From a virus, in IMG/VR virus record IMGVR_UViG_3300045988_143923: a stretch of DNA of 64,000 nt, one strand, 5' to 3'. Positions 45,603 to 63,222 of this stretch are shown in pieces. The notes under the pieces were generated by a model, which saw only the letters and a program-made list of their open reading frames with translations, searched no databases and was not told the DNA's origin. The stretch's first letter is position 1; each line of letters starts with the position of its first letter. A program made the position numbers and the translations under genes.

Positions 45603-48600
45603 TTATTTTTTGATTTTGAGAACTTCGATAATGTCGTTGACCATGCGGCGAGATACAGCTTCATGCTGCTTAACCGTGTCTCCGTCCGCACCCTTGATGA
45701 TGGTGTCACCGAAGGTAACGTTCGTGACGTTTTCACGCGGGATCGTGACAACTTCACGGTTCACGCCGGAAACAGGCATCTGAGCGGCCTTGGACAGGTC
45801 AGGCAGGGCAGAAGCGGACAAACCGCTGGTAATGGCGGACATTACCTTGAGAATGGAGTCGAGCGACTGCTGTTTGGGCTTGTCGAGCACGATTTCGCCC
45901 TTTTGCAGAATCGCCATCATCTCGTCTTGACGCAGGGTAGAGGCATCGCCGACAACGCCGCCGGTGTGGTATATACCGAGGTACTTATCATAGATGTTAT
46001 TGCCATACTTGTCATACCAAACACCAGTGTGACCATCATAGTGAACACCGAGATCGTACTGGCTGTTGAGTTGACCAGCATAGTCGGCATTCTTTTGGTT
46101 GAGCGCTTTCTTCTGCTCCACCGTCATGTTGGCAGACCAAGTATCACTGTTCTTCTTCATCTTCGCCACGATTCGAGCGATCCCAGCCGCATCTGCATCC
46201 CCAGTGCCGTATTTATTCGAATCGCCAATGATATTGGAGTTGGAACCGTTGGAAGAAGAATTGGAACCGTTTTCACCAAGACGATCATAGACTTCGAGGT
46301 AAGTAGCATTGTACTTCTCCATAGCCTTTTGGGCGTCTTGCCATGCTTGCGTAACCTTGGCATTGATGTCCGAACCCGCACGAGTGTTATATTCAATTAA
46401 ATCATCGTAAAGTGTTGCCCAACCATCTTGTATTCTCTTTCGAGCCATTTGGTAGAGTTTTTCCTCCGATGAAATTGAATCCTGCAGTTTCTTAATCTCG
46501 GCGTCCTTTTCCTTCTCGTAAGCCTCCTGCATCTTATCAAGATTATCGGTCTGACGGTCATAGGCTTCATTTGCCTGCGTCTCGCCAAGTTCTTTTTGGA
46601 GATCGGCGAGTTGTTCTTCAAGGTCTTTACGCTTTGCGATTGACTCGCGGCTGTCATCCAGAGACAGAGCGTTAATCTTCTCTTGGAGCTTTGCCATTTC
46701 CTTGACCTTGTCGGCTACCTCGTCCTGATAGTCGGCTTCGTCCTTGCTCAGTTGCAGGCTTTCCTTCTTCTTATCGATGATCTCGCTATACTTATCCTTC
46801 AGCTCTTCCAGAGCGTCGACCTGCTGGTCGATTTCGTCTCGAATCATATCCTCGACGTACTTGAACAGAGCGTCAACGCTATCCTTGGTGTCGTCGAAGT
46901 CGATTCCGACGCCGGCTTTTACGTTAGCCAGAACGCTGCGGTACGCATCTACATTCTTAACAGCCTGCGCATAGCCTTCCTCGGTGAGGTCAAGCATAGC
47001 GAGCTGTGCGTAAACGGAACCCCACTGAACCTCGGTCAGGTCGGCCGTTGCGTTCAGCAGATTATTCAGAGAAACAACGTCGTTCTCCTGCAGAGCCATA
47101 CGCAGACGCTCCACATAAGCGGAGGCGCTTTCCAAAGCCATCTGCTCAGTCTTAGCTTTGATAACGCGGTTGATGGCTTCCTCGTTGATGGTCAGAAGAC
47201 CATTCTCGTCTTTGAGGTATCCCATGTATTCGACGCCAAGTTTGGAGATTTCTTGGAAGGTATCGACGGAGATAAAACCACCATTTGTCGAGTATTCCTC
47301 GGCAGCCTTCTTGAACGTGTCGAGAACGTCCTGAATCGTATCAACAGAGTCGCTTGCCGCATCAACAATATCAGAGAGATAGTCGATAACTTTCTGCTTA
47401 ACATCCTTAACAGCGTCTTCGTATTCCCACCACTGATCTGAGAGGTCGGCCACTTCGTCGCTAAGGTCGGAATATCCCATGCCACGGTAATACTGCGCTT
47501 CCTTGTGCAGGTTCTTCTGAGCTTCGCGATAATGGTCAATGATGCCGTTGAGCGTAGACTCAATTGCGTCGCCATCGATAGACGAGAAGATAGTATCAAC
47601 AGTCTTGGTTTCGAAACTGTCTGCAATGCCGCTGAAGATGCCGGCCAGAGGATTGCCCTTCTTGGCGACACCGTTCAGAATATTCTGCGACAGCTTTGCC
47701 GAATTGAAAATCTTACGCTGAGCACGAGTGAAAGAGCGTTCGAGCTTATCAGTATCGAGCAGACGGTCAAGGCTTCGCTCGGCCAGTTTGATAGCATTTT
47801 CATGTTCCGACGTGATCTTGTCGTACATGTCCTTCATCGTGTCGATGATGCTGTCATGTGCCTCCCAGTATTTCTTCTGCATAGACATAATGTATTCAGA
47901 AGAATCTTTCTGCCCTTGAGCACGGTAACGCTCGGCGGCTTTATGGGTTTCATCCTGAATCTGCTTATAATAAGCGACAATCTTCATCGGGTCGCCACGC
48001 TGCTTTTCGACGAGGTATATCTTGTGCTCAATCTGGTCGATGATATCTTCGACTTCTTCTTTGATTTTGTCGAGAGCTTCCTTTGCAGAATCTGAAAGCT
48101 GAGAGGTATCAGCAGAGACTTTGACGGTGGCGTTACTGGATTTGCCAGATGAACTGGAAGGCACCCAGTTCCGGTAATGACCATTGGTGGCAAAGCTAAG
48201 ATTGCTCAATGCACCGTTAGCGTTCGCGCCGCCCCACACACCGCCAGATGCTTGATGGGGAATACCGCCGTGCATCAGACCAGCAGTCAGATTAGCAGGA
48301 ACAATCGCGTCACCGGGTTTAGTGTTGATGACTTCCATTCCATGCAAGCCAACAAATTTACTATGCTTGCCGTCCCGAGAAATCCACTGCTCAGGGCCAA
48401 GTTCGCCGACAAGTGTTTTGCCGCCTACAGCGTTGCCGCCAGATGCGTACTGAGTCATTTTGCCAACGTGTCCGGTGAAGTCTTGCTTTTTATTCCCCTC
48501 ACGGCGACTATGAATGTCAGCCTTGGTCTGAGCTTCGGTTCTGGTTGTCTGGACTGTGTTTACGCGAATGGTCACACTCTTATCGTGAATACCACTCATT

Positions 48601-51600
48601 AACCCAACTGTGTATAGAATCTTACTGTTGGCTTCCGAAGTATTTACATTGACATGGCGTTCTTTTTCGATAGGTTTAAGTGCTTCATCTATCGCATTGA
48701 CTTTCCCGGCAGCTTCCACAGTATTCCCTTCAATAGTAAGCTGTACTGGATTTCCCGCCTCATCTTGGATTTGCGCCATCGTACTCAATACAATTTGCGC
48801 CTGTTCTTGCGTAACACCAAGACTGCTTGCGAAAGCATCCAAGTTGCTCACATTGATAGACCAACCACCATCATCAAGACGTTCAACACTAGCAGCAGCT
48901 TCGCCCGAAGCGGTTTTCACGCTTTCAAGAGATGCTTTCAGGCCATCAAAAGTCGGAGTCTCTCCGCCAATGCTTGCCTTGAATTTATTCATGGCACTTA
49001 CAAGCGTGTCGAGCTCATCTACAGATATTTCTTTAACATCAATATCCGTTCCTTCAGTAAGAGACTCGAGTGCGATTTTCGCACTTTCACTCATGTGCTC
49101 CCATGCTTTTGTGGACGACCGATCAGCCGCAGAAACAGATTGTTTGATACGATAGGTGTCATCGTTCAGCGTCTGGATACTTGATGTAACCGAACTAACT
49201 GTTTTCGGAACATAATCCGAATATGTGGAGATTAAATCAAGTGATTGTTGCAGAGAAGCTGCCGAAATTCCAAAAGCGTCGGCCAGAGCGACAACATCAT
49301 GTTGTGCGACTTGGATAGAACCAGTATCCCAATCCACATCCATGAGTCCATCGACAATCTTTTTCTTGTCAGCACTGAGCTCGTTATACTTCTTATGAAG
49401 TGTATTAAACGTTCCGGTTAGGTCTTGACCGACATTATCCTCGTCTGTACCTGTTAAGAAGAGGCCCTCATTGTCCTTAACCCACTGCTTCGCTTCTTGC
49501 AGGCTAACAACCTTGCCGATGAGAAGCTCCATTTGATTGCGAGCTTCCTCTGTGTTAATTTGCCCTTTATTTACTGATTCTGCAAAATCATCGTAGATTG
49601 AAACCATACTCTCGTGATCTTGTACATGGTCGGTAATCCCTTCCATAGAGGTTTCATAATTTGCAAGAGCATCAGAAACCGTATTAAGAGAGTCAGTTTG
49701 TTTGCTCAGGGAATTTGAAATCGCATCCAGAGCTTCAGGCAAAGCGCCAACTTGAGCAAGAGCGGCCAACCGAGCGGCAAATTCCGAAGCATGATCGCCA
49801 GTATCAACCAGAGCGGAATTGAGAGCGGAAAGTTGATTCTTTGACAATTTTTCGAGATTGAAGTCCTTGAGAAGCTCGTCTACGGAAGAACCTTCAATAT
49901 CTGAGCCGCTTAGAGCCTCTTCGAAATTACTCCGGATGGTCTCTCGCATTTGATACATGTCTGACTGGAATTGTTTTAATCCGAAAGCCTCAGACAAATC
50001 AATTGCGTTCATTTCTTCAGGAGTTAATCGTTTCGATAATTCTGCGCGAACAGCCTCCATCACTGTTGACATTTTTGCAACATATTTATCGTAAGGCATC
50101 GAGTCCTGTTCTTCTTGAATCTTATAATAATCAGAAATAGCCTTTTTCCCTGCTTCGGTGTTTTTAACAACTTGAAGCATCGCATTCGCATATCTTAACG
50201 GCGCGTCGGGATTATTTGCGTCATAAAGCGCGTCAGAACTAATGCTGTCAGCGTATTGTGATAAAAATGTTTTCTGCTGGTCATCTAATTCGTAATAGAG
50301 TTTATTCGCCTCAAGAGACGCTTGCATCATCTGCTTGACCTCGGAGCTACTTGCATCTACACTCTCAGAAGCAGAATGCCAAGCATTAGCTAAACTTTCG
50401 CCATCTGCCGATAAATCGCCTGTCATTCCACGCATTTGATTCAATTGACCGAGAATATTATCAAAATTCTTTCCAAGAGCTTCGGAATTATCGCGAATAT
50501 AATCAAGCCAAGTAACACTTTTAGAGCCGTTGGTTTCTTTGTTGATTTTATCAGCGTACTCATCGTAAGTCATACCAATAGTGTCGGAAATTAACTTATT
50601 GAAATTCTTAATATCTCGGCCGCCGTTTTTAGACAAAGCAGTTTGAACCCGAGATAAATAATTAAAGATGTCATTATCGACACTTTTTACGCCTTCCTGT
50701 GCTGTTTTATATTGTTCTTGGAAGTCTTTATAGGCAGCTTCATAATTCTTCTTATGACCGTCATTCTCTGATGATCCACCATATACGGCATCTCGCGCTT
50801 CCTGTCTCTGCTGCTTCTCGAGTAATGCGATTGTTTCCTCGATAGCAGAATTTTTATCCAAGATAGCTTGTTGCTCATCGTTATAACCCTCCACTAATGA
50901 TGGATTGATCCCAACAAGTTGGGAAACAATATCTTGGTATTCTTGATATTCATCGGCAGCCAGAGAAATATTTTTGCCGTTGTCTGTTACGCCCTTGGAC
51001 AATTCTGCGAATCGATCTTTGAGATTTTCGACTGACGTAATATTGCCCTCGATAGATGATTTGGCGCTGTCGTAGTTGCTCAATGCATTTTGGGTTATTT
51101 CGGCTGCTTCTTGTGCGGACATCACTGTTTTATCAATAGCACTCATAAGACCGGTTAGTATAGTCTGAACAGCCATAAATGCTACCATCGACACGGCCAT
51201 ACTTGCAATAGCAGACCCGATCCCCTTAAAAGTCGATGCAATCTTGGCTCCGAGTGTTCCTACCTTTTCTTGCTTTGCAGTGAAGTTATCGATTTGTCCG
51301 TTAACAACATCACACTCATTCCCGACGGTGTCAAGGGATTTAGCAAACTCACGACTTTGAATACTTGCGCCAGAAAGAGCTTTTTCAAAATCAGCACCTC
51401 TAAGTTTTTGCTTCATCTGAGCGTAGTTTTTCAGAATTTCATTTTGTTCCTGCCAATAGTCGTGGTTTTTGGTGTTATAATTTTTCAGCCAACTGAATAA
51501 ACCACTTCCGCCAAAGATGTTTTCTCCATATTCTCCCTTTCCTCCGATAATGCTTTTCCCGTTCATTGACAGAAGCAGGGAACCTACAGGAGCGATAAGC

Positions 51601-51901
51601 CCCGGAAGAACGCCAAGTTTATCAATCAGAGTGTTGAAGAACCCGAGAATGCCAGAACCGGCGCCGATAGTTCCTTTCACAAGACCAGAATCAAGAATAG
51701 AAGTGCTCAAAGACTGGAATGTGGCTTGGAACTGTTGCATTTTACCCTCGATAGAATCAAGATGTTTTGCGTTCTCGGCATCGGCTGAGCCAGTTGCGTT
51801 TTTAGTCGACTCGATGACGTCCTCAACGGTCGACCAGTTCTGGATGAGCGCTGAAGTTGTATTCGCCATTCTCTTCGTTTTGTTTACAAGGGTTGCAAAG
51901 C
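45603..51901 (-). CDS. tail tape measure protein, last exon
   Basis: Reads through ...KTKRMANTTSALIQNW... to the TAA at 45603. The ORF track reports 45603..51869. The exact 3' splice site is uncertain by a few codons. Confidence 0.8.
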
Positions 51902-52274
51902 CTTATGTTGTATCTACAACCTCATGCTTTCGCATGAGACCCGACTATTTCTTCACCCTTAAAACTAAGGGGCATACCTTTTCCATTTAAGGGATTTTCA
52001 CCCACGCCTTTGCTTGCGCCGTACTCCTGTTGCTCATAAAGAGCCGAGGGATAGTCTGTGAACCTTCTCCGTGTCATGAGACCGATAGGAGCTTGGCTGC
52101 ATGATCACCCATTGTTACTGCACTTAGGCTTTTGACCGTATGCAATCCGCACGTTGTTTCTGCTTTCGCACCGTCATAAACTGCTTTCGCGCTCATTGTG
52201 GTGTGCGGCTTTAGGGGGTACCTGCAATTAAATATGTTGTTATTGCACATTGCTGTACAACCGGGCAAGTGAAT
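51902..52274 (-). mobile_element. group I intron 5 in the tape measure gene (family A)
   Basis: P1 pairing CGGGU/GCCCG with U-G. P7 pairing GACUAU/AUAGUC. Terminal G. Confidence 0.7.
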
Positions 52275-52309
52275 ACCCGAAATCTTTTCGAGCAAAGCTC
52301 AGTATATTC
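52275..52309 (-). CDS. tape measure protein, 35-nt micro-exon (…NILSFARKDFG…)
   Basis: Restores the conserved DQANIL.. motif in frame between two introns. Confidence 0.65.
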
Positions 52310-52705
52310 CACGGGGGCACAACTCCCGTGAGCTGTCTAAAACAGCATCTCTGCGTTTCCACAGAAGTTTAGATCATTTCTTAATCGTGCCTTTCGGCGA
52401 CGACCACACCGTTTCCATTTAAGGGGTTCTCACCCACGCCTTTGTTTGCGCCGTACTTCTGTTGCTGCTTACGCAGCCCTACATGGGAATGATCGTTTGA
52501 CACACCTCTATTCGAGGCTTCGCGACCAAGCTACCATTGTCACTGCACTTAGGCTTTTGACCGTATGCAATCCTTACCGTTGTTTTACTTTCGTTCCCGT
52601 CATGCCAGCTTATTTCATCCGCATTGTGGTGGTAAGGCTTTAGGTTTTACTGGTTTTAGATGTGTTATTTACGCACATTTCTGTACGCACAGGCAATATT
52701 GGTCT
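52310..52705 (-). mobile_element. group I intron 4 in the tape measure gene (family A)
   Basis: Close sequence relative of intron 5. P7 pairing GAUCAU/AUGAUC. P1 pairing CAGGC/GCCUG, which is C-G rather than U-G. Terminal G. Confidence 0.65.
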
Positions 52706-52972
52706 GCCTGATCTACGTCACTAAGTTGATCATAAACGCCGGCAATTTCGCGCATAATCTGCGTTGTACTCTTAAATTGAGTGCCTGCCTCGTCGGCCAT
52801 GATGTCAACTTTGTCGTGGGTTAAAGTTTTGATGGTTTCGCGAAGCTCGCTCACAGAGTTTGCCATACCATCCGTTTCGATTCCGGCCTCTTCAGCATCA
52901 GCTTTAGCGGCACGGAGGTACATACTAAGAGTTTTAGCCCATGTCAATCTGTTACTTTCGGCGGGTCGCCTA
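52706..52972 (-). CDS. tape measure protein, exon (…RRPAESNRLTWAKTLSMYLRAAKADAEEAGIETDGM…LSDVDQA)
   Basis: Conserved TMP core, part of ORF 52669..52980. Confidence 0.75.
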
Positions 52973-53132
52973 CTGACCACTTTTGTGGCGGCAAGGCCGT
53001 TAAACCTTGCTCTCGCGTTTCGTTGTTAGATTATAGCGCGAGTTCGGACTGTATCTTCACCCCAGAGCGGGGGAATGGCGAAGCCCCGCTTGTTACCAAG
53101 CGGGGCTTTACAGTCTCTACGGATATTAAAAT

Positions 53133-53651
53133 TTAAGTTATTGGAATGCTGACCGGTTCATCGAAAGAATATAGATCATGATCATTATCCATATAATATA
53201 CTAAATTTGCACTAGTTATATTATCTCGATCATCCCAATGTTCATTGTTACTATCTATGCTCAAAAATCCATCAAATGTTTGATCTGGGGCTAATAAGCC
53301 CGTATGCGTAAAACCTTCGGAGTAAACAATATTCCCGTTTGAATCCAATAAATCTGCACCAATAAGCGGAGATTTCAAAGCAGATCCAGAAATATTTTTT
53401 ATTTTGAAGTAAAAATACATTACAGATTCGCTCTCGTAATTTTCGCATTTTTTAGTTTGAAATGTAACTTCCAAAGGTATATCCACAGGACTAGTTTCAG
53501 GCTTAGCATCAGATTCATCTATTACCGTATATGTTGTAGCTGGAGATTCATCTTGAGCAGGCTCAGCTTTCTCAACGGATTCCTTCCCGCAACCGCAAAA
53601 GCTAAGCGTAGTTATAATAGCCAACAATATAAGGTGGCGTTTTCTTTTCAT
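53133..53651 (-). CDS. intron-encoded secreted lipoprotein-like protein (not a homing endonuclease)
   Basis: ATG at 53651 behind an AAGGGTGAG RBS. MKRKRHLILLAIITTLSFCGC signal/lipobox-like N-terminus and a beta-rich body. AT-rich. Confidence 0.65.
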   Translation of the reverse strand: MKRKRHLILLAIITTLSFCGCGKESVEKAEPAQDESPATTYTVIDESDAKPETSPVDIPLEVTFQTKKCENYESESVMYFYFKIKNISGSALKSPLIGADLLDSNGNIVYSEGFTHTGLLAPDQTFDGFLSIDSNNEHWDDRDNITSANLVYYMDNDHDLYSFDEPVSIPIT

Positions 53652-53673
53652 ATTTCTCACCCTTTCAACTTTA

Positions 53674-53701
53674 ATTATACATTAAAAGAAGAAAAAGTAA
53701 A
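53674..53701 (-). promoter_or_regulatory. candidate promoter (TTTACT-16-TATAAT) for the intron-borne ORF
   Basis: Read on the minus strand upstream of 53651. Confidence 0.4.
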
Positions 53702-53803
53702 TCTTAAATTTTAATCTTTCCTCGGTCTGAACCGTCTCCGGCCTTTAACCGATATAGCCATTTGCTTGCTCGCATATTACTATGCGGCTGGGCGCATGGA
53801 TTC

Positions 53804-53857
53804 ACCCACTGTATCAGGATCTTGTCGTTTCTGTTACTTGTTAGCGCTGATATACCA
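53804..53857 (-). CDS. possible 54-nt (or 51-nt) tape measure mini-exon between tandem introns 3a and 3b
   Basis: Open and frame-preserving (GISALTSNRNDKILIQW) if intron 3a ends at ..AUUAG. It might instead be skipped. Confidence 0.35.
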
Positions 53858-54108
53858 CTAATCTGACCGCAAAGCGGCGGCAAGGTCTTTCGGCCTTACT
53901 CTCACGTTTCCTTTCATTATTGCGTGAGTCCGGACTGTATATTACACCCTTCCCAGAGGAGTGGGGTGGATTGGTTCAGCTCTGGTGTTACCATCAGAAC
54001 CCCGCAGTCTCTACGGATATTGCTACCCACGGTCTCTGCTGTCGCCAGCCTTTGACCGTTTTACCAATCTGCTTGCGAACGTATTACTACGCCGCGTGGC
54101 AAAGATCT
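53858..54108 (-). mobile_element. group I intron 3a in the tape measure gene (family B)
   Basis: P1 pairing GUGGU/GCCAC. Has the CCGUAGAGACUGCGGGG element and P7 pairing GACUG/CAGUC. The 3' end is uncertain by about 5 nt. Confidence 0.65.
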
Positions 54109-54214
54109 ACCACTTCGTTTGCTGCTGTTACGAGGCCCAAACTCTCATCGAGAGAGTTGCCGCCTGCGTACAGAGCTGCTGCTGATCTTTTAAGAGCTTC
54201 GCCAAGCCCTTCTG
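54109..54214 (-). CDS. tape measure protein, 106-nt exon (SEGLGEALKRSAAALYAGGNSLDESLGLVTAANEVV)
   Basis: Matches the conserved TMP core and lies in frame with its neighbours. Confidence 0.75.
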
Positions 54215-54556
54215 CGTACCTTTAGCGCGGGTCGTTACTCCGCACCGACATAAAGTCCTCCGTCTTTCAACGGAGCCGAGATCATATCTTCACCCCATAG
54301 GGTGCCTACCACTTTCAGAGCACTCGCCCCTACTTTGATCGTTGAACCTTCCTCTGTTCGAGGCTTGGCTGCTGATTATCCATTGTCACGGCGTTTAGGG
54401 TTTAACCTTGCGCCATCTCTCATTTTTTTTCTGCTTTCGCCGCATTCACGTTTGCGCCTGTTCGGCACTGCGTTGTAGCATGAGAGCTTTAGGACGTCCC
54501 AGCAATTCAATAGGTGATTTTGCGAACACATTTCTGTGAACGAAGTCCAATGATTA
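54215..54556 (-). mobile_element. group I intron 2 in the tape measure gene (family A)
   Basis: P1 pairing AAGUU/GACUU with U-G. P7 pairing GAUCA/UGAUC. Terminal G. Confidence 0.7.
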
Positions 54557-54579
54557 AACTTATCGCGTAGTTGTTTCCG
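54557..54579 (-). CDS. tape measure protein, 23-nt micro-exon (GNNYAIS)
   Basis: CGGAAACAACTACGCGATAAGTT completes ..FNEV|GNNYAIS|SEGLGEAL.. in frame. Confidence 0.7.
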
Positions 54580-54856
54580 CTGTTTGTTACTTTTTTCCTT
54601 AAAAACGAAAAGAACAGGTCATTTCTGCCTGTTTCTGCAATTTCATTATTCGATTATATTTGCAGACCCGACTATATCTTCACCTCCAAAAAAGGAGGGG
54701 ATGGCATGACTCTGCACGTTACCGTGCAAAATCGGTTAGTCTGTACGGATTCTTGTGGTCAAACACAAGTCTTTCCTCGGTATTGCCCATCTCTGGGTGT
54801 TCACCGATATAGCCATCTTTTACGCTGCACATCGCTGTGCAGGGAGGCCGGTCAAA
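54580..54856 (-). mobile_element. group I intron 1 in the tape measure gene (family B)
   Basis: P1 pairing GAGGU/GCCUC. Has the CCGUACAGACUAACCG and GAAGAUAUAGUCGGG elements. Terminal G. Confidence 0.7.
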
Positions 54857-56532
54857 ACCTCATTGAAACGGTCTACGACGCTTCCAACATCATCAGCAGC
54901 AAGATGGAAGCCCTGCAGAGTAGAAACAAGCGACTGTGCCGCGTCCTCAATGTTCGTGTATTCCGACACGTTCATATATTTGGTCGCCCAGTCGCCAAGA
55001 TTGGAGGCATCCTCCAAATTAAATCCGAGTCGGCTAAACTCAGATGTTGCTCCAATTACATCCGTAATCGAAGCGCCGAGGCTCTTCGCGCGTTCACCAG
55101 CGCTGTCAAGATAATTAGCGTAATCCTGACTTGAACCTTCCGAAACCTTTTTCAGGTCGGTCATCGCCGTGTCAACGTCGATAACATTCTGGAGCGTCTG
55201 CTGTAAGCCATTCTGCAATAAGTGCAGTCCTGCCATCGCAATAGCCGTGTTAAAGTGATCCTTGAACAGGCGAGTCAGCTTCTGCCCGACAGTTTCAGAC
55301 GTAAACCCGAGTTCTTCCATACTGGAGCGAACAGATGCGAGGTCTCTTTGAAGTCCCTCAACGCTATCACCTTCGCCCGGGTTTCTCGCACGGCTCATAA
55401 TGTTCCGCAGTTCGCCTTGAAAATAAGAACCCGCCGCTTTTGGGTTATTTTTAAGTGTTTCGCTGGCCTGCCGATAAATGTTCGCCAAATGTTCCTGCGA
55501 TCTCTGAGAACGAACGGTCGCAGTTTGCTTAGCATTAAACAAATCTGCCTGTGCGCTCGCATCAGCCCACGCGGAACGGAGTCCATTCAGGCCCTGCTCC
55601 AGCTCATAAGTACCGGCCGCCGCATTCTGGAAAACAGATTTTGCATTCTCGAATGCCGTCCAATCATAATTCTGCAGCGTCCCTTTATCTTTTAGAGCCT
55701 GAAGCTGCGTTATATATTTCTGGCCGGATGCCAAAACATTATCAGTAACCGACTGAGAGTTCTGTCTGGACACTGTAGTCCACATCTTCTTGATGTTTTT
55801 CTCAAGCGCGTACTTCTCTGGCGTAAAATCCGCCATGCTCTTGTACTGTTTGAGCATCTTATCAAGGCTGGCTACATTCTCCTCACCAAAAAGGTTACCC
55901 TTCTTGAGCTTTCCAAACTTAGAGCTAATCTGCTGAACATCCAACATAGATCGCTCGGCCTTTTCTGCAGCCTTCAAATTGTTGCGAGAGAACGCAATAT
56001 TGGTCGCCTGCTGTGCCTCTTTCAGAGCGTTAACGCTTTCTACAGTTCCCTTGGTCGTTGACTCAAACTTCTTCATCGCGGTTTCAGCCGCCGAGATAGC
56101 CTTTGAATCGATAGGACTCGGCATGTTCTTCAGATACGACATCGTCTGTCTCAAGCCGGTCGCCTGACGCTCCATTGTACGCAACTGCCGTTCCGCAGCC
56201 TTCTCTGCGTCTGTTTTGCCCGATGTGGAGCTTTTAGACGAGCTGCTCTTTGTGGTAGAGGAGCGGGTCGAAGCCGCAGAAGACTTAGCTTTGCCGGAGC
56301 TGTTTGTTCCAGTTCCGGCCGCCGAGATAGCCTTTTTAATCTGAGCAGTGATATTGGCAGTATCAACGTTTACTTTCAGCTTGGTTGAGGAAGCGTTTTT
56401 GATTGCTGAACTGATACTTTTCTGCAGAGCTGCAGCATCAACTTGAATTGGAAAATCCTTGTAGTTACTGAGGGCGCTTTCGAGTTTGTCAAAATTAGGG
56501 ATAAGTTCGACAGTAACGCCTAAATCAGCCAT
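54857..56532 (-). CDS. tail tape measure protein, exon 1
   Basis: Helical N-terminal part ending ..VVDRFNEV. The ORF track (54820..56532) runs on into the intron. Confidence 0.8.
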
Positions 56533-56551
56533 AAATTCACCTTCCTTATAG

Positions 56552-56577
56552 CAAAAAAGCCGCGGAAAGGCGCGGCT
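56552..56577 (-). terminator. rho-independent terminator directly upstream of the tape measure start
   Basis: GCCGCG/CGCGGC hairpin plus TTTTTTGC. Confidence 0.6.
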
Positions 56578-56578
56578 A

Positions 56579-56611
56579 AAATAAAAGAAGCACCACGGAA
56601 ACGTGGTGCTT
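56579..56611 (-). terminator. rho-independent terminator after the cargo block
   Basis: GCACCACG/CGTGGTGC hairpin plus CTTTTATTTT. Confidence 0.6.
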
Positions 56612-56621
56612 GGGAATCTTC

Positions 56622-57209
56622 TTAAATTTTAGAACTGTTCTTGGGATATTTAATTTCGACCCGAGAAATTTTCGCAGTGTCTAACGCAATTTTTCGAGTG
56701 TCGTCTTCTTTGTAATCAAATATCGGTTCATCCGCATGTGATTCGCTACCCTGATATTTTTTGTAATTAGTTAAAACAATCCACTGTCGGCCATCCTCGC
56801 TTTTGTGATCTTCTGTAAAATATCCACGATAAGACACATCAGAATCACTTAGATATACGCGGAGCGTAGTTCCTTTTTCGAAGTCGGATATTGCATACCA
56901 GACATCTTCTTCGAGCGTTTTATAGAAGAATTGGTCGAGAATACATGATACAAATTCAGAATTGCGGAGAATGCCACCAACGAACCCGAAAGCAAAAGAA
57001 AATGCAAGGATTGCTAAAATACTAATTTGAGGATAAACAGAGCGAAGAACGACAGTCAGAACATAGCTCCAAATAATTGTAGTTGCGGAGAAAATATCTC
57101 TTTTAGCCGAATAGCGTGCTGTCAGTTTATATGCGAACATAAAAACAGTAGCAGGCACAAAATATACCATTATTTTGTCGAGATTTTCTAAAATATACTC
57201 AATGTTCAT
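56622..57209 (-). CDS. polytopic membrane protein with soluble C-terminal domain
   Basis: 195 aa, three to four N-terminal TM helices, AT-rich. Confidence 0.55.
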   Translation of the reverse strand: MNIEYILENLDKIMVYFVPATVFMFAYKLTARYSAKRDIFSATTIIWSYVLTVVLRSVYPQISILAILAFSFAFGFVGGILRNSEFVSCILDQFFYKTLEEDVWYAISDFEKGTTLRVYLSDSDVSYRGYFTEDHKSEDGRQWIVLTNYKKYQGSESHADEPIFDYKEDDTRKIALDTAKISRVEIKYPKNSSKI

Positions 57210-63129: not shown

Positions 63130-63222
63130 TGGCAGAGATGGTTGGATTCGAACCAACGAGCGAGAGCGTTACCTCTCTTGGCGGAGTCAAATTCCGCTGC
63201 CTTACCGCTTGGCCACACCTCT
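63130..63222 (-). tRNA. tRNA-Gln (anticodon UUG) with an 18-nt hairpin inserted in the variable loop
   Basis: 93 nt. It has the Gln-type D arm GCCAAGCGGTAAGGC, anticodon stem-loop GCGGA-AUUUGAC-UCCGC, T arm GTTGG-TTCGAAT-CCAAC and G73-CCA. The variable region is CAAGAGAGGTAACGCTCTCGCTC. Confidence 0.7.

What the first reader, a model, noticed from the sequence alone, without database searches (positions are those of the whole stretch)
51902..54856. Tape measure gene interrupted by six group I introns in under 3 kb
On the minus strand, ORFs 54820..56532 and 45603..51869 are the two ends of a single tape measure protein. Between them the conserved TMP core is readable only in short pieces. These are FNEV | GNNYAIS | SEGLGEALKRSAAALYAGGNSLDESLGLVTAANEVV | RRPAESNRLTWAKTLSMYLRAAKADAEEAGIETDGM...LSDVDQA | NILSFARKDFG | ..KTKRMANTTSALIQNW. 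Each intervening segment shows group I hallmarks. First, the last exon U pairs with a G in an internal guide sequence a few nt downstream (GAGGU/GCCUC, AAGUU/GACUU, GUGGU/GCCAC, UGGGU/GCCCA, CGGGU/GCCCG). Second, there is a CCGUA(C/G)AGACU or CA(C/A)A(G/C)A(C/U).. J6/7-P7 element. Third, there is a GAAGAUAUAGUC-like P7' element with compensatory changes between copies (GACUA/UAGUC, GACUG/CAGUC, GAUCA/UGAUC). Fourth, every segment ends in a terminal G. The joined exons are in frame, at 8406 nt or 8460 nt with the optional segment. The introns fall into two sequence families: 1, 3a and 3b versus 2, 4 and 5. I know of phage genes with one to three group I introns, but not of a tail tape measure gene fragmented to this density.
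Basis: partly seen in the sequence, partly recalled or inferred. Interest (0 to 1): 0.9.

Follow-up and report, generated by a model that had tools for sequence, protein, structure and literature searches.

The report
Six introns split a phage gene
A phage tail-length (tape measure) gene is cut into seven pieces by six self-splicing group I introns within 3 kb, twice the number I found reported for any phage gene, and one intron carries a fast-evolving surface lipoprotein gene instead of the usual homing nuclease.

Summary
The core claim holds. On the minus strand, one tape measure gene (56532..45603) is interrupted by six group I introns between 54856 and 51876.

Evidence:
- Two introns pass Rfam RF00028, and a third scores E=9e-6.
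- The other three are homologues of these, with complete, compensated group I helices.
- In 41 related contigs every one of the six sites is found both occupied and empty, and the empty alleles match the predicted ligated exons.

- All six 5' splice sites are right, but four of the six 3' splice sites are wrong.
- The correct mRNA is 8364 nt (2787 aa), not 8406 or 8460 nt.
- There is no "optional segment". Three obligatory micro-exons of 23, 22 and 25 nt encode (V)GNNYAIS, (V)QDPDTVG and AALLEKISG.
- "RRPAESNRL", "NILSFARKDFG" and "CFATLVNKT" are intron sequence.

Group I introns in prophage tape measure genes are already published (B. cereus group, three sites, two per gene), so the kind is known. 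What I did not find in the literature is the density (relatives carry 0-5), the tandem pairs 22-25 nt apart, and intron 4's cargo. That cargo is an AT-rich lipoprotein gene with a promoter-like site, present as six alleles 27-52% identical.

No RNA evidence exists. Six in cis could still be an assembly mosaic.

The parts
54857..56532 (-). Exon 1 of the tape measure gene (1676 nt; starts MADLGVTVEL, ends ...VVDRFNE + GT of Val559)
   Evidence: ORF. The N-terminus matches homologues P0001/P0004. The empty allele L009 reads AATGAGGT|CGGAAAC across the junction.
54580..54856 (-). Intron 1 (277 nt, family A, no ORF). P1 is GAGGU/GCCUC with U.G; omega-G is at 54580.
   Evidence: RF00028 32.7 bits, E 9e-6. 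Helices P2-P9 verified. Absent in L001-3, L009-11, L066-69 and others. L088 has it without intron 2.
54557..54579 (-). Exon 2, a 23-nt micro-exon: C GGA AAC AAC TAC GCG ATA AGT T, encoding (V)GNNYAIS(S)
   Evidence: Continuous with exons 1 and 3 in P0001 and L009.
54215..54556 (-). Intron 2 (342 nt, family B, no ORF). P1 is AAGUU/GACUU; omega-G is at 54215.
   Evidence: RF00028 69.2 bits, above the gathering score of 50. The empty allele L009 reads GATAAGTT|CAGAAGG.
54109..54214 (-). Exon 3 (106 nt; SEGLGEALKRSAAALYAGGNSLDESLGLVTAANEV + GT)
   Evidence: Alignment A1.
53826..54108 (-). P1 is GUGGU/GCCAC, P10 is GAUCUU/AAGAUC, omega-G is at 53826.
   Evidence: No Rfam hit. Homologous to intron 1 with compensated P3, P4, P5 and P7. 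In L002, L008, L010 and L077 it is 1240 nt with a 319-aa nuclease ORF in the P6 loop. Absent in L001 and L003, which read ANEVVQDPD continuously.
53804..53825 (-). Exon 4, a 22-nt micro-exon: A CAA GAT CCT GAT ACA GTG GGT, encoding (V)QDPDTVG.
   Evidence: Restores the conserved motif ANEVVQDPDxVGTWAKT seen in P0001, P0002, P0009 and P0012. P0005 reads QDPDSVG and then enters intron 4.
52945..53803 (-). P1 is UGGGU/GCCCA, P10 is CCAUG/CAUGG, omega-G is at 52945. The P6 loop holds the lipoprotein gene and is closed by the 13-bp stem AUUAAAAUUUAAG/CUUAAAUUUUAAU.
   Evidence: nhmmer family A hits on both halves. Helices verified. Empty alleles L002 and L008 read GTAGGA|ACATGGGCT. 'RRPAESNRL' lies inside the 3' tail of this intron.
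53133..53651 (-). Intron-4 cargo: a 172-aa predicted lipoprotein (MKRKRHLILLAIITTLSFCGC...). GC is 35.5% against 50% for the ribozyme parts.
   Evidence: ORF. There are six alleles, 27-52% identical, with an invariant Cys. AlphaFold gives a beta-sandwich with pLDDT >90 for residues 55-175. Only generic Ig-like fold matches were found. Only 9 clusters reach E<1e-10 in 1.84 billion representatives. No nuclease, Pfam or PADLOC family matched.
53674..53701 (-). Promoter-like site TTTACT-16-TATAAT, followed by the Shine-Dalgarno-like GGGTGAG upstream of the lipoprotein ATG
   Evidence: Best sigma-70-type match (10 of 12) in 51800..56700. The TATAAT is retained in the other alleles. This is a consensus match only.
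52706..52944 (-). Exon 5 (239 nt; TWAKTLSMYLRAAK...YDQLSDVDQ + GC)
   Evidence: Alignment A1; junction mapping.
52300..52705 (-). P1 is CAGGC/GCCUG with C-G, not U.G, at the cleavage site. Omega-G is at 52300. A 2-nt AG repeat leaves the exact phase formally ambiguous.
   Evidence: RF00028 only 15.5 bits. It is 71% identical to intron 6. Collinear P2, P3, P4, P6a, P7 and P9 with compensation against intron 6. In L001 and L073 it is 1557 nt with a 254-aa nuclease ORF. Empty alleles read CAGGCCGCTTTGCTC.
52275..52299 (-). Exon 6, a 25-nt micro-exon: A GCT TTG CTC GAA AAG ATT TCG GGT, encoding (A)ALLEKISG
   Evidence: Restores DVDQAALLE(K/L)(I/L)SGKR as in P0002, P0036 and P0070.
51876..52274 (-). 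P1 is CGGGU/GCCCG, P10 is UUCACUU/AAGAGAA (6 of 7), omega-G is at 51876.
   Evidence: RF00028 61.2 bits. In L070 and L072 it carries a 276-aa HNH-like ORF. Empty alleles L001, L008 and L011 read TCTGGC|AAGAGA.
45603..51875 (-). Exon 7 (6273 nt incl. stop; KRMANTTSALIQNW... to the C-terminus)
   Evidence: ORF. The spliced total is 8364 nt, in frame, with a single terminal stop.

Best explanation
The minus strand of 56532..45603 is one tape measure gene of an SPbeta-like temperate siphophage from the human gut. Mobile group I introns have colonised its conserved PF10145 core at six sites: after nt 2 of codon 559, after nt 1 of codon 567, after nt 2 of codon 602, after codon 609, after nt 2 of codon 689, and after codon 697.

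Inferred mechanism:
- The late transcript contains all six ribozymes.
- Each ribozyme folds and uses its own internal guide sequence to pair with the last 5 exon nucleotides (P1) and with the first nucleotides of the next exon (P10).
- Each splices by the guanosine-initiated two-step transesterification of group I introns.
- The seven exons, three of them only 22-25 nt long, are joined into an 8364-nt ORF for a 2787-aa protein.

The introns arrived and are lost independently, by homing and gene conversion. Relatives carry nuclease-bearing versions at the intron 1 site and of introns 3, 5 and 6. The window holds only ORF-less derivatives. The exception is intron 4, whose P6 loop holds a low-GC lipoprotein gene preceded by a promoter-like site. 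I infer that this gene is expressed from the prophage as a lysogenic-conversion gene, possibly for superinfection exclusion.

Shown here: sequence anatomy, homology, covariation and population polymorphism. Inferred: splicing, its efficiency, and expression and function of the lipoprotein.
For: 1. Rfam RF00028: intron 2 at 69.2 bits and intron 6 at 61.2 bits (gathering score 50), intron 1 at 32.7 bits (E 9e-6), intron 5 at 15.5 bits.
2. Family A (introns 1, 3, 4): P2, P3, P4, P5, P7, the hairpin between P7 and P3', P8 and P9 are all fully complementary in 10 sequences, with compensatory changes. P3 is GAUGGC/GCCAUC, GAUUGG/CCAAUC, GAUCAC/GUGAUC or AAUGGC/GCCAUU. P4 is UCGGU/ACCGA or ACGGU/ACCGU. 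P7 is C[A]GACUA/UAGUCG or G[A]GACUG/CAGUCC.
3. Family B: intron 5 has collinear P2-P9 with compensation against intron 6. P3 is CACAUC/GGUGUG against CAUAUUU/AGGUAUG, P4 is ACCAG/CUUGGU against UGCAG/CAUGCA, and P7 is GAUCA/UGAUC against GACUA/UAGUC.
4. The G-C pair next to the bulged nucleotide in P7 is invariant in all six, and every intron ends in G.
5. The spliced product is in frame. It restores motifs that are continuous in homologues: P0001 at 95% identity across junctions 1-4, and P0002, P0036 and P0070 across junctions 5-6. It gives one PF10145 match of 50.9 bits, whereas the N-terminal fragment alone scores 26.8, below the cut-off of 33.2.
6. In 41 related contigs every site is seen both occupied and empty. 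Occupancy ranges from 0 to 5, and three contigs are intron-less. Empty alleles match the predicted ligation products base for base in length.
7. Exon bases that form P1 or P10 differ synonymously between occupied and empty alleles, as expected from co-conversion or selection for pairing.
8. Nuclease ORFs sit in relatives' copies and match phrog_559/9084/7140, annotated as HNH, homing or intron-encoded nuclease.
9. In five of the six introns an in-frame stop follows the 5' splice site within 7-16 codons, upstream of the core.
10. The same intron families sit at the same codon positions in TMP cores only 35-40% identical, in distant genomes.
Against: - There is no RNA or protein evidence of any kind.
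- RF00028 does not detect introns 3 and 4. Introns 1 and 5 are below the gathering score.
- Intron 5 has C-G instead of the near-universal U.G at the 5' splice site (that rule is from my own knowledge of group I introns). Its P10 is weak.
- Intron 3 in the window has an A.C mismatch in the hairpin after P7.
- Intron 6 lets ribosomes read 66 codons into the core.
- Adjacent homologous ribozymes could misfold with each other. Skipping any micro-exon would shift the frame.
- None of the 41 related contigs has all six introns, and intron 5 is never seen together with introns 1 and 2 outside the window.
- For the lipoprotein, the promoter is only a consensus match and the fold is generic.
Confidence: 0.82

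Rival explanations
1. The six-in-cis arrangement is an assembly mosaic. Each intron is real, but the contig joins strain variants, and real genomes carry at most five.
For: None of 41 related contigs has six introns. Intron 5 never co-occurs with introns 1 and 2 elsewhere. From exon 3 onward the window is 99-100% identical to L009 and L079, while its intron1-exon2-intron2 block is 100% identical to L008.
Against: Exon 1 of the window is at most 97.6% identical to any sampled contig, including L008 (94.2%) and L009 (97.0%), so it is not a simple join of sampled variants. Homing with co-conversion would produce exactly such mosaics naturally. Five-intron genes occur in 12 independent contigs, some from genome-derived UViGs.
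Confidence: 0.12
2. The gene is a decaying prophage pseudogene. The interruptions are dead insertions, and the fragments are either not joined or the phage is defective.
For: No nuclease gene remains in any of the six introns. Intron 5 has a non-canonical C-G splice-site pair. One relative (L002) has a frameshifting 77-nt deletion in this region.
Against: Removing exactly the six introns gives an uninterrupted 2787-aa ORF. The ribozyme helices are maintained by compensatory changes. The micro-exons keep conserved residues. The same arrangements recur at 97-100% identity in many samples.
Confidence: 0.05
3. One reading: acceptors at 52972, 52309 and 51901, an mRNA of 8406 nt, or 8460 nt with an optional 54-nt exon.
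For: It is in frame, each proposed acceptor follows a G, and it still scores on PF10145.
Against: It inserts RRPAESNRL, NILSFARKDFG and CFATLVN where every continuous homologue has QDPDxVG and ALLExxSG. Empty alleles have exactly the length of the corrected model. The proposed exon stretches are conserved as the 3' tails of introns 3, 4 and 6 (AAGUAACAGA..G). P10 pairings fit the corrected sites.
Confidence: 0.02
4. The pairing of introns 22-25 nt apart is not chance. The second intron of a pair sits in the recognition or cleavage window of the nuclease of the first. This would give immunity or allow hitch-hiking (collaborative homing), so pairs are selected as units.
For: There are three pairs with spacings of 23, 22 and 25 nt. 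Introns 1 and 2 co-occur in most contigs. Nuclease-bearing and ORF-less introns are neighbours in relatives: I1' with intron 2, intron 3 with intron 4, intron 5 with intron 6. Some phage intron nucleases cut about 23-25 nt from the insertion site (I-TevI; my own knowledge).
Against: Most members are also found without their partner: L088 and L080 for the intron 1 site, L008 for intron 3, L003 for intron 4, L001 for intron 5, L066 for intron 6. Intron 2 was never seen without an intron at the intron 1 site. The sites coincide with the most conserved TMP motifs, which alone could explain clustering. No cleavage sites are known for these nucleases.
Confidence: 0.2

Closest known systems
Group I introns TMP-IVS1/2/3 in tape measure genes of Bacillus cereus-group prophages (Tourasse & Kolsto 2008, PMC2504315)
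   Same: Same host gene family (TMP) and the same element type (group I, IA subclasses). Insertion is at conserved sites, related introns have adapted to different sites through P1, different introns occupy one site, copies are mostly ORF-less, and distribution among related prophages is patchy.
   Different: That work found three sites and at most two introns per gene. Here there are six in one gene within 2.98 kb, arranged as three tandem pairs separated by 22-25-nt exons, and one intron carries a lipoprotein gene. I could not test whether any site is homologous to IVS1-3, because figures are not held and those genomes are not in the collections.
Staphylococcus phage Twort orf142, with three group I introns and exon skipping (Landthaler & Shub 1999, cited in PMC11878797)
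   Same: Several self-splicing group I introns in one phage structural-module gene, with short internal exons.
   Different: Three introns against six. Exon skipping there is experimentally shown. Here any skip would shift the frame, and nothing has been tested.
Bastillevirinae DNA polymerase and terminase introns (NAR 2025, PMC11878797)
   Same: [quoted passage not shown]
   Different: The maximum reported there is three. The genes are different, and no non-nuclease cargo is reported.
Organellar multi-intron genes (fungal mitochondrial cox1) and rps3 inside the mt-LSU group I intron (my own knowledge, not checked here)
   Same: Comparable intron density, very short exons, and a host-useful non-nuclease gene lodged in a group I intron loop.
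   Different: Those are eukaryotic organelles with protein splicing cofactors and no transcription-translation coupling. This is a bacterial virus.
Ltp-type superinfection-exclusion lipoproteins of temperate phages (TP-J34; PMC3952083 and its reference Bebeacua et al. 2013)
   Same: A prophage-encoded, surface-anchored lipoprotein. Ltp's identified target is the tape measure protein of the incoming phage, and here the lipoprotein gene lies inside a tape measure gene.
   Different: There is no sequence or fold relationship. The model here is a beta-sandwich, whereas Ltp is built of helical repeats (my own knowledge). The function here is untested, so the resemblance is only a lead.

Membership tests
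Group I intron (Rfam RF00028) | Score at or above the curated gathering score (50 bits) | tested here: inconclusive
   Met by intron 2 (69.2) and intron 6 (61.2). Intron 1 scores 32.7 (E 9e-6) and intron 5 scores 15.5. Introns 3 and 4 give no hit even in a 311-nt search. Related copies in other loci also go undetected.
Group I intron | Conserved core helices P3-P4-P5-P6-P7-P8 in canonical order, with the P3/P7 pseudoknot | tested here: met
   All six introns. Family A was verified by script with perfect complementarity and four P3 variants. Family B was shown by the Rfam alignments and a collinearity check for intron 5.
Group I intron | P1 formed by the 5' exon end and an internal guide sequence, with a U.G wobble at the cleavage site | tested here: met
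   Introns 1, 2, 3, 4 and 6: GAGGU/GCCUC, AAGUU/GACUU, GUGGU/GCCAC, UGGGU/GCCCA, CGGGU/GCCCG.
Group I intron | U.G wobble at the cleavage site, intron 5 specifically | tested here: not met
   Intron 5 has CAGGC/GCCUG, that is C-G. This is conserved in L001, L003 and L009. The Ala codon GCN at the site excludes a U.
Group I intron | Guanosine-binding site: a G-C pair in P7 next to a bulged nucleotide | tested here: met
   C[A]GACUA, G[A]GACUG and A[C]GAUCA, each paired with ..UAGUC, CAGUC or UGAUC. The G-C pair is invariant in all six.
Group I intron | Terminal omega-G, and P10 pairing with the 3' exon | tested here: met
   Omega-G is present in all six at junctions fixed by empty alleles. P10 is 6 bp for intron 3, 6 of 7 for intron 6 and 5 bp for intron 4. 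It is weak (3 bp) for introns 1, 2 and 5.
Group I intron | Self-splicing with a guanosine cofactor | not testable with these tools
   Needs in vitro transcription with GTP, or RNA-seq.
Subgroup IA group I introns | Extra pairing(s) P7.1/P7.2 between P7 and P3' (definition from my own knowledge of the Michel-Westhof classes) | tested here: met
   Family A has one 10-12-bp hairpin with a GUAA loop between P7 and P3'. Family B has 22-80-nt insertions at the same place in the Rfam alignments. I did not assign a finer subclass (IA1, IA2 or IA3).
Mobile (homing) intron | Intron-encoded homing endonuclease gene | tested here: not met
   None of the six window introns encodes a nuclease. Relatives do: intron 3 carries 319 aa, intron 5 carries 254 aa (phrog_559 at 4e-42 and 2e-56), intron 6 carries a 276-aa HNH-like ORF, and the intron 1 site carries 423 aa with DUF4379.
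Mobile (homing) intron | Precise presence/absence polymorphism at a fixed site among close relatives | tested here: met
   All six sites, in 41 loci.
Twintron (intron within intron) | One intron interrupts another, so the outer one cannot splice first | tested here: not met
   Each tandem pair is separated by a 22-25-nt exon that encodes conserved TMP residues.
TP901-type tape measure protein (PF10145 / TIGR01760) | Match above the curated cut-off across the core | tested here: met
The spliced core scores 50.9 bits on PF10145 (cut-off 33.2), profile positions 29-197 of 201 in one stretch, and 35.5 bits on TIGR01760 (cut-off 28.8).
Bacterial lipoprotein | N-terminal signal peptide ending in a lipobox with an invariant Cys | tested here: met
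   MKRKRHLILLAIITTLSFCGC. The Cys is invariant in six alleles. Read from the sequence; no dedicated predictor was available.
Ltp-type superinfection exclusion protein | Sequence or fold similarity to Ltp | tested here: not met
   No Pfam, PHROG-function or PADLOC hit. The predicted fold is a beta-sandwich with only generic matches.

The most novel reading that the evidence does not exclude
Intron 4 is not a degenerate homing intron. It may be a vehicle for a host-interaction gene. Its P6 loop, the place where intron 3 carries its nuclease, holds a low-GC lipoprotein cassette preceded by a promoter-like site. The cassette is exchanged or diversifies far faster than the ribozyme around it: six alleles at 27-52% protein identity inside ribozyme arms 85-100% identical. 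If the lipoprotein is expressed in the lysogen and acts at the cell surface, for example to exclude related phages whose tape measure protein must cross the envelope, then a self-splicing intron would let a phage insert a conversion gene into the middle of an essential late gene at no coding cost. In addition, the three tandem intron pairs 22-25 nt apart may reflect selection, through nuclease-site immunity or co-conversion, rather than chance.
Probability: 0.25. Interest if true: 0.75.

Novelty: new variant of a known kind. Interest (0 to 1): 0.6.

Why it matters
- It doubles the number of self-splicing introns I found documented in a single phage or bacterial protein-coding gene. It also shows that group I ribozymes may work side by side with only 22-25 nt of exon between them, if splicing is confirmed. 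That would be a demanding test of co-transcriptional folding and splice-site choice.
- The set of 41 related contigs carrying 0-5 introns in nearly identical genes is a ready natural experiment on intron gain, loss, co-conversion and nuclease decay.
- The standard covariance model (RF00028) misses four of the six introns. Such genes are therefore annotated as strings of fragments, and tape measure proteins, which are used to infer tail length, are mis-called.
- A group I intron carrying a lipoprotein gene with a promoter-like site would be a new way for temperate phages to carry conversion genes.

Tried and rejected
- Megablast of the region against GenBank phages gave no match.
- The first protein-pattern scan of GTDB genomes found nothing, so the host species is not identified. 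The contexts are human-gut metagenomes with SPbeta-like gene content.
- RNAalifold de novo on family B recovered only local hairpins, not the pseudoknotted core.
- Column-wise pair counts on MAFFT alignments A4 and A5 were abandoned because P3', P4' and P7 were misaligned for introns 3 and 5. I replaced them with per-sequence helix checks.
- I first took an interruption at aa ~1360 in L012 for a seventh intron site. It is an in-frame coding insertion with no Rfam hit, so I retracted it.
- PDB sequence searches with the two nuclease ORFs gave nothing useful.
- PADLOC, Pfam and NCBIfam gave nothing for the lipoprotein beyond its signal peptide.
- The generic core pattern scan mostly returned unrelated group I introns, in Patescibacteria, Streptomyces and others. 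Only the subset confirmed by nhmmer and tblastn was used.
- The plasmid search did not retrieve the published pBWB404 TMP intron, so site homology with TMP-IVS1-3 stays untested.

Full report
**What is there**

The minus strand holds a 570-aa ORF (56532..54820) and a 2088-aa ORF (51869..45603), with only short ORFs between them. Rfam RF00028 (group I intron) scores above its gathering threshold at 54566..54258 (69.2 bits) and 52284..51921 (61.2 bits). No other group I hit appears anywhere in the 64-kb window. A permissive scan of 51500..55300 adds 54866..54648 (32.7 bits, E 9e-6) and a weak partial hit at 52501..52349 (15.5 bits). It finds nothing over 52945..54108, even when that stretch is searched alone. 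The N-terminal ORF alone stays below the Pfam cut-off.

**Correcting the exon-intron map**

A homologue search with the spliced core returned both close relatives that read through some junctions and distant intron-less tape measure proteins. Their alignment is decisive on four points.
- P0001 (95% identical) is continuous through FNEV-GNNYA(V/I)S-S(Q/E)GLGEAL.
The window encodes exactly QDPDTVG in a 22-nt stretch (53825..53804) between '3a' and '3b'.
- Between DVDQA and KR(x)ANTT every continuous homologue has ALLE(K/L)(I/L)SG. The window encodes this as a 25-nt stretch (52299..52275).

The corrected map has seven exons:

| Exon | Coordinates (minus strand) |
|---|---|
| 1 | 56532..54857 |
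| 2 | 54579..54557 |
| 3 | 54214..54109 |
| 4 | 53825..53804 |
| 5 | 52944..52706 |
| 6 | 52299..52275 |
| 7 | 51875..45603 |

It has six introns of 277, 342, 283, 859, 406 and 399 nt. Together the exons give 8364 nt, in frame, with one terminal stop, encoding 2787 aa. Four of the six acceptor sites are wrong, and the 'optional 54-nt segment' does not exist.

**Are all six really group I introns?**

Introns 2 and 6 pass the curated model.

Family A:
- Introns 1, 3 and 4 are one sequence family.
- Ten family-A sequences from the window and relatives were checked helix by helix.
- P2, P3, P4, P5, P7, a 10-12-bp GUAA-capped hairpin between P7 and P3', P8, P9, P9.1 and P9.2 are all fully complementary and carry compensatory changes.
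- The hairpin between P7 and P3' is the extra pairing that marks subgroup IA (my own knowledge).
- The long-range P3 occurs in four versions, each a perfect 6-bp match: GAUGGC/GCCAUC, GAUUGG/CCAAUC, GAUCAC/GUGAUC and AAUGGC/GCCAUU.
- P4 is UCGGU/ACCGA or ACGGU/ACCGU.
- P7 with its flanking pair is C[A]GACUA/UAGUCG or G[A]GACUG/CAGUCC.

Family B:
- Intron 5 is 71% identical to intron 6.
- It has every core helix in the canonical order, again with compensation: P3 CACAUC/GGUGUG against CAUAUUU/AGGUAUG, P4 ACCAG/CUUGGU against UGCAG/CAUGCA, and P7 GAUCA/UGAUC against GACUA/UAGUC.

Features shared by all six:
- The G-C pair next to the bulged nucleotide in P7, the expected guanosine site, is invariant, and each intron ends in G.
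- P10 supports the corrected acceptors. It is GAUCUU/AAGAUC for intron 3, UUCACUU/AAGAGAA for intron 6 and CCAUG/CAUGG for intron 4. For intron 5 the pairing lies in register next to P1 and covaries in L003.
- In five introns an in-frame stop closes translation 7-16 codons after the donor, before the core. Intron 6 allows 66 codons.

One real oddity is intron 5. It has a C-G pair, not U.G, at the cleavage site, conserved in all copies. A 2-nt AG repeat leaves its exact phase formally ambiguous. Homology of the guide sequence with intron 6 favours 52706|52705.

**Comparative evidence**

I fetched 41 related loci by exact-protein look-up and by scans of IMG/VR and metagenomes. I mapped exons and introns in each.
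- Every site is found both occupied and empty.
- Three contigs are intron-less (L067-69). Others carry one intron: L066 has intron 6, L001 and L073 have intron 5, and L080 has an intron at site 1.
- Intermediate combinations occur: 3+4, 4+5, 5+6, 1+2+3, 1+3+4, 3+4+5+6 and 1+2+3+6.
- The commonest full pattern is 1-2-3-4-6, in 12 contigs.
- Empty alleles have exactly the predicted ligated length. L009 matches the E1|E2|E3 junctions with 0-1 mismatch.
- Exon bases used for P1 or P10 differ synonymously between occupied and empty alleles: CAGTGGGT against CAGTAGGA at site 4, TTTCGGGT against TTTCTGGC at site 6, and ACAAGATCC against TCAGGACCC at site 3. This is the signature of co-conversion or of selection for pairing.
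- Larger versions of introns 3, 5 and 6 carry ORFs of 319, 254 and 276 aa. The first two match phage nuclease families phrog_559/9084/7140. The third has an HNH-like motif.
- At site 1, several contigs carry a different, RF00028-positive intron (65.6 bits) with a 423-aa ORF, inserted after the same codon position.

The window therefore holds ORF-less derivatives of mobile introns. nhmmer profiles of both families find no further copy in the window.

**How general is it?**

- A scan of GTDB genomes with a generic J6/7-P7...P7' pattern, filtered with the family profiles and tblastn, shows the same intron families inside PF10145 cores that are only 35-40% identical.
- The genomes are distant: Thomasclavelia cocleata DSM 1551, Faecalibacillus, Clostridium, Alkalibaculum, Oscillospiraceae, and even Paludibacteraceae and Bacteroidales MAGs.
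- The introns often sit at the same codon positions (site 1, site 4, site 6), and also at two further positions near codons 597 and 620.
- Tourasse & Kolsto (2008) already described group I introns at three sites in TMP genes of B. cereus-group prophages, with two per gene.
- The largest numbers I could find reported for a phage gene are three: Twort orf142, and Bastillevirinae polymerase and terminase.
- So the kind is known, but six in one gene, with tandem pairs separated by 23, 22 and 25 nt, is beyond what I found described.

**The cargo of intron 4**

- The P6 loop of intron 4 is the position where intron 3 carries its nuclease. It is closed by a 13-bp stem and contains a 172-aa ORF (53651..53133).
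- The ORF has a lipoprotein signal peptide. Its GC is 35.5%, against 50% for the ribozyme arms.
- It is preceded by the best promoter-like site of the region, TTTACT-16-TATAAT, at 53701..53674, and a Shine-Dalgarno sequence.
- Six alleles from related contigs are homologous but only 27-52% identical, with the Cys invariant. The surrounding ribozyme is 85-100% identical.
- The AlphaFold model is a confident beta-sandwich with only generic Ig-like, ApaG or DUF4352-type neighbours.
- A profile search of 1.84 billion representatives finds only nine clusters at E<1e-10.
- No nuclease, defence or named family matches.
- I infer a lysogenic-conversion gene, possibly for superinfection exclusion. The only link to Ltp, the TP-J34 lipoprotein that targets the tape measure protein (PMC3952083 and its reference list), is by analogy, not homology.

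**Caveats**

- Nothing here shows splicing.
- No other contig has all six introns. From exon 3 onward the window equals L009/L079, while its intron1-exon2-intron2 block equals L008, so an assembly mosaic cannot be excluded.
- Against a simple mosaic, exon 1 is at most 97.6% identical to any sampled contig, which argues for a distinct strain. Five introns in cis are well replicated in any case.
- Skipping any micro-exon would shift the frame, so accuracy of splice-site pairing is essential for the phage.

**Verdict**

It is an extreme case, with new features, of a phenomenon already on record.

Noticed in passing
L002:4290-4330 (relative of window 52760..51860): This relative has a 77-nt, frameshifting deletion between two GAAAT/GAAT repeats. 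It removes exactly the stretch holding insertion sites 5 and 6 (AGVYDQLSDVDQAALLEKISGKRMA). It is either a dead gene, an imprecise intron loss, or an assembly artefact.
   Followed up: partly
window 56558..56611 (-): Two strong terminator-like hairpins with T-runs (10 and 7 bp stems) lie back to back in the 90-nt gap just upstream of the tape measure start codon, inside what should be one late operon.
   Followed up: no
window 53826..54108 and 52945..53803; also L001-L003, L020, L058, L063: RF00028 fails to detect the whole family-A intron lineage and ORF-bearing copies, even at permissive thresholds. Genes split by these introns will be annotated as fragments.
   Followed up: yes
L013:10657-12321, L080:857-2745: A different group I intron (RF00028 65.6 bits), with a 368-423-aa zinc-ribbon/DUF4379 nuclease ORF, occupies exactly the same codon position as window intron 1. 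So two unrelated introns compete for one site.
   Followed up: partly
L020 (Thomasclavelia cocleata DSM 1551), L058, L063, L056, L040, L059, L064: Distant prophage tape measure genes (35-40% identity), including some in Bacteroidota MAGs, carry relatives of the same two intron families at the same and at two further core positions (near codons 597 and 620). L056 and L058 each have three within 2-4.5 kb.
   Followed up: partly
window 52074..52295 (-): The reading frame of exon 6 stays open for 66 codons into intron 6, through P3-P6. This is unlike the other five introns, which stop within 7-16 codons. A ribosome could disrupt this ribozyme if splicing lags.
   Followed up: no
phage records KP144388/NC_029073 (Geobacillus virus E3) and plasmid NZ_CP020426 (C. 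difficile): The tape measure match falls into two separated pieces in these annotated records. That suggests unannotated introns there too.
   Followed up: no
window 63133..63222 (-): A tRNA gene (RF00005, 53 bits) sits within the structural module. Relatives L003, L012 and L013 have one or two tRNAs at the same place, next to the YomU-like tube gene.
   Followed up: no
L064:6149-6227: A skipping-rope RNA (RF02924, 81 bits) lies about 1 kb downstream of an intron-bearing tape measure core in an Oscillospiraceae MAG.
   Followed up: no
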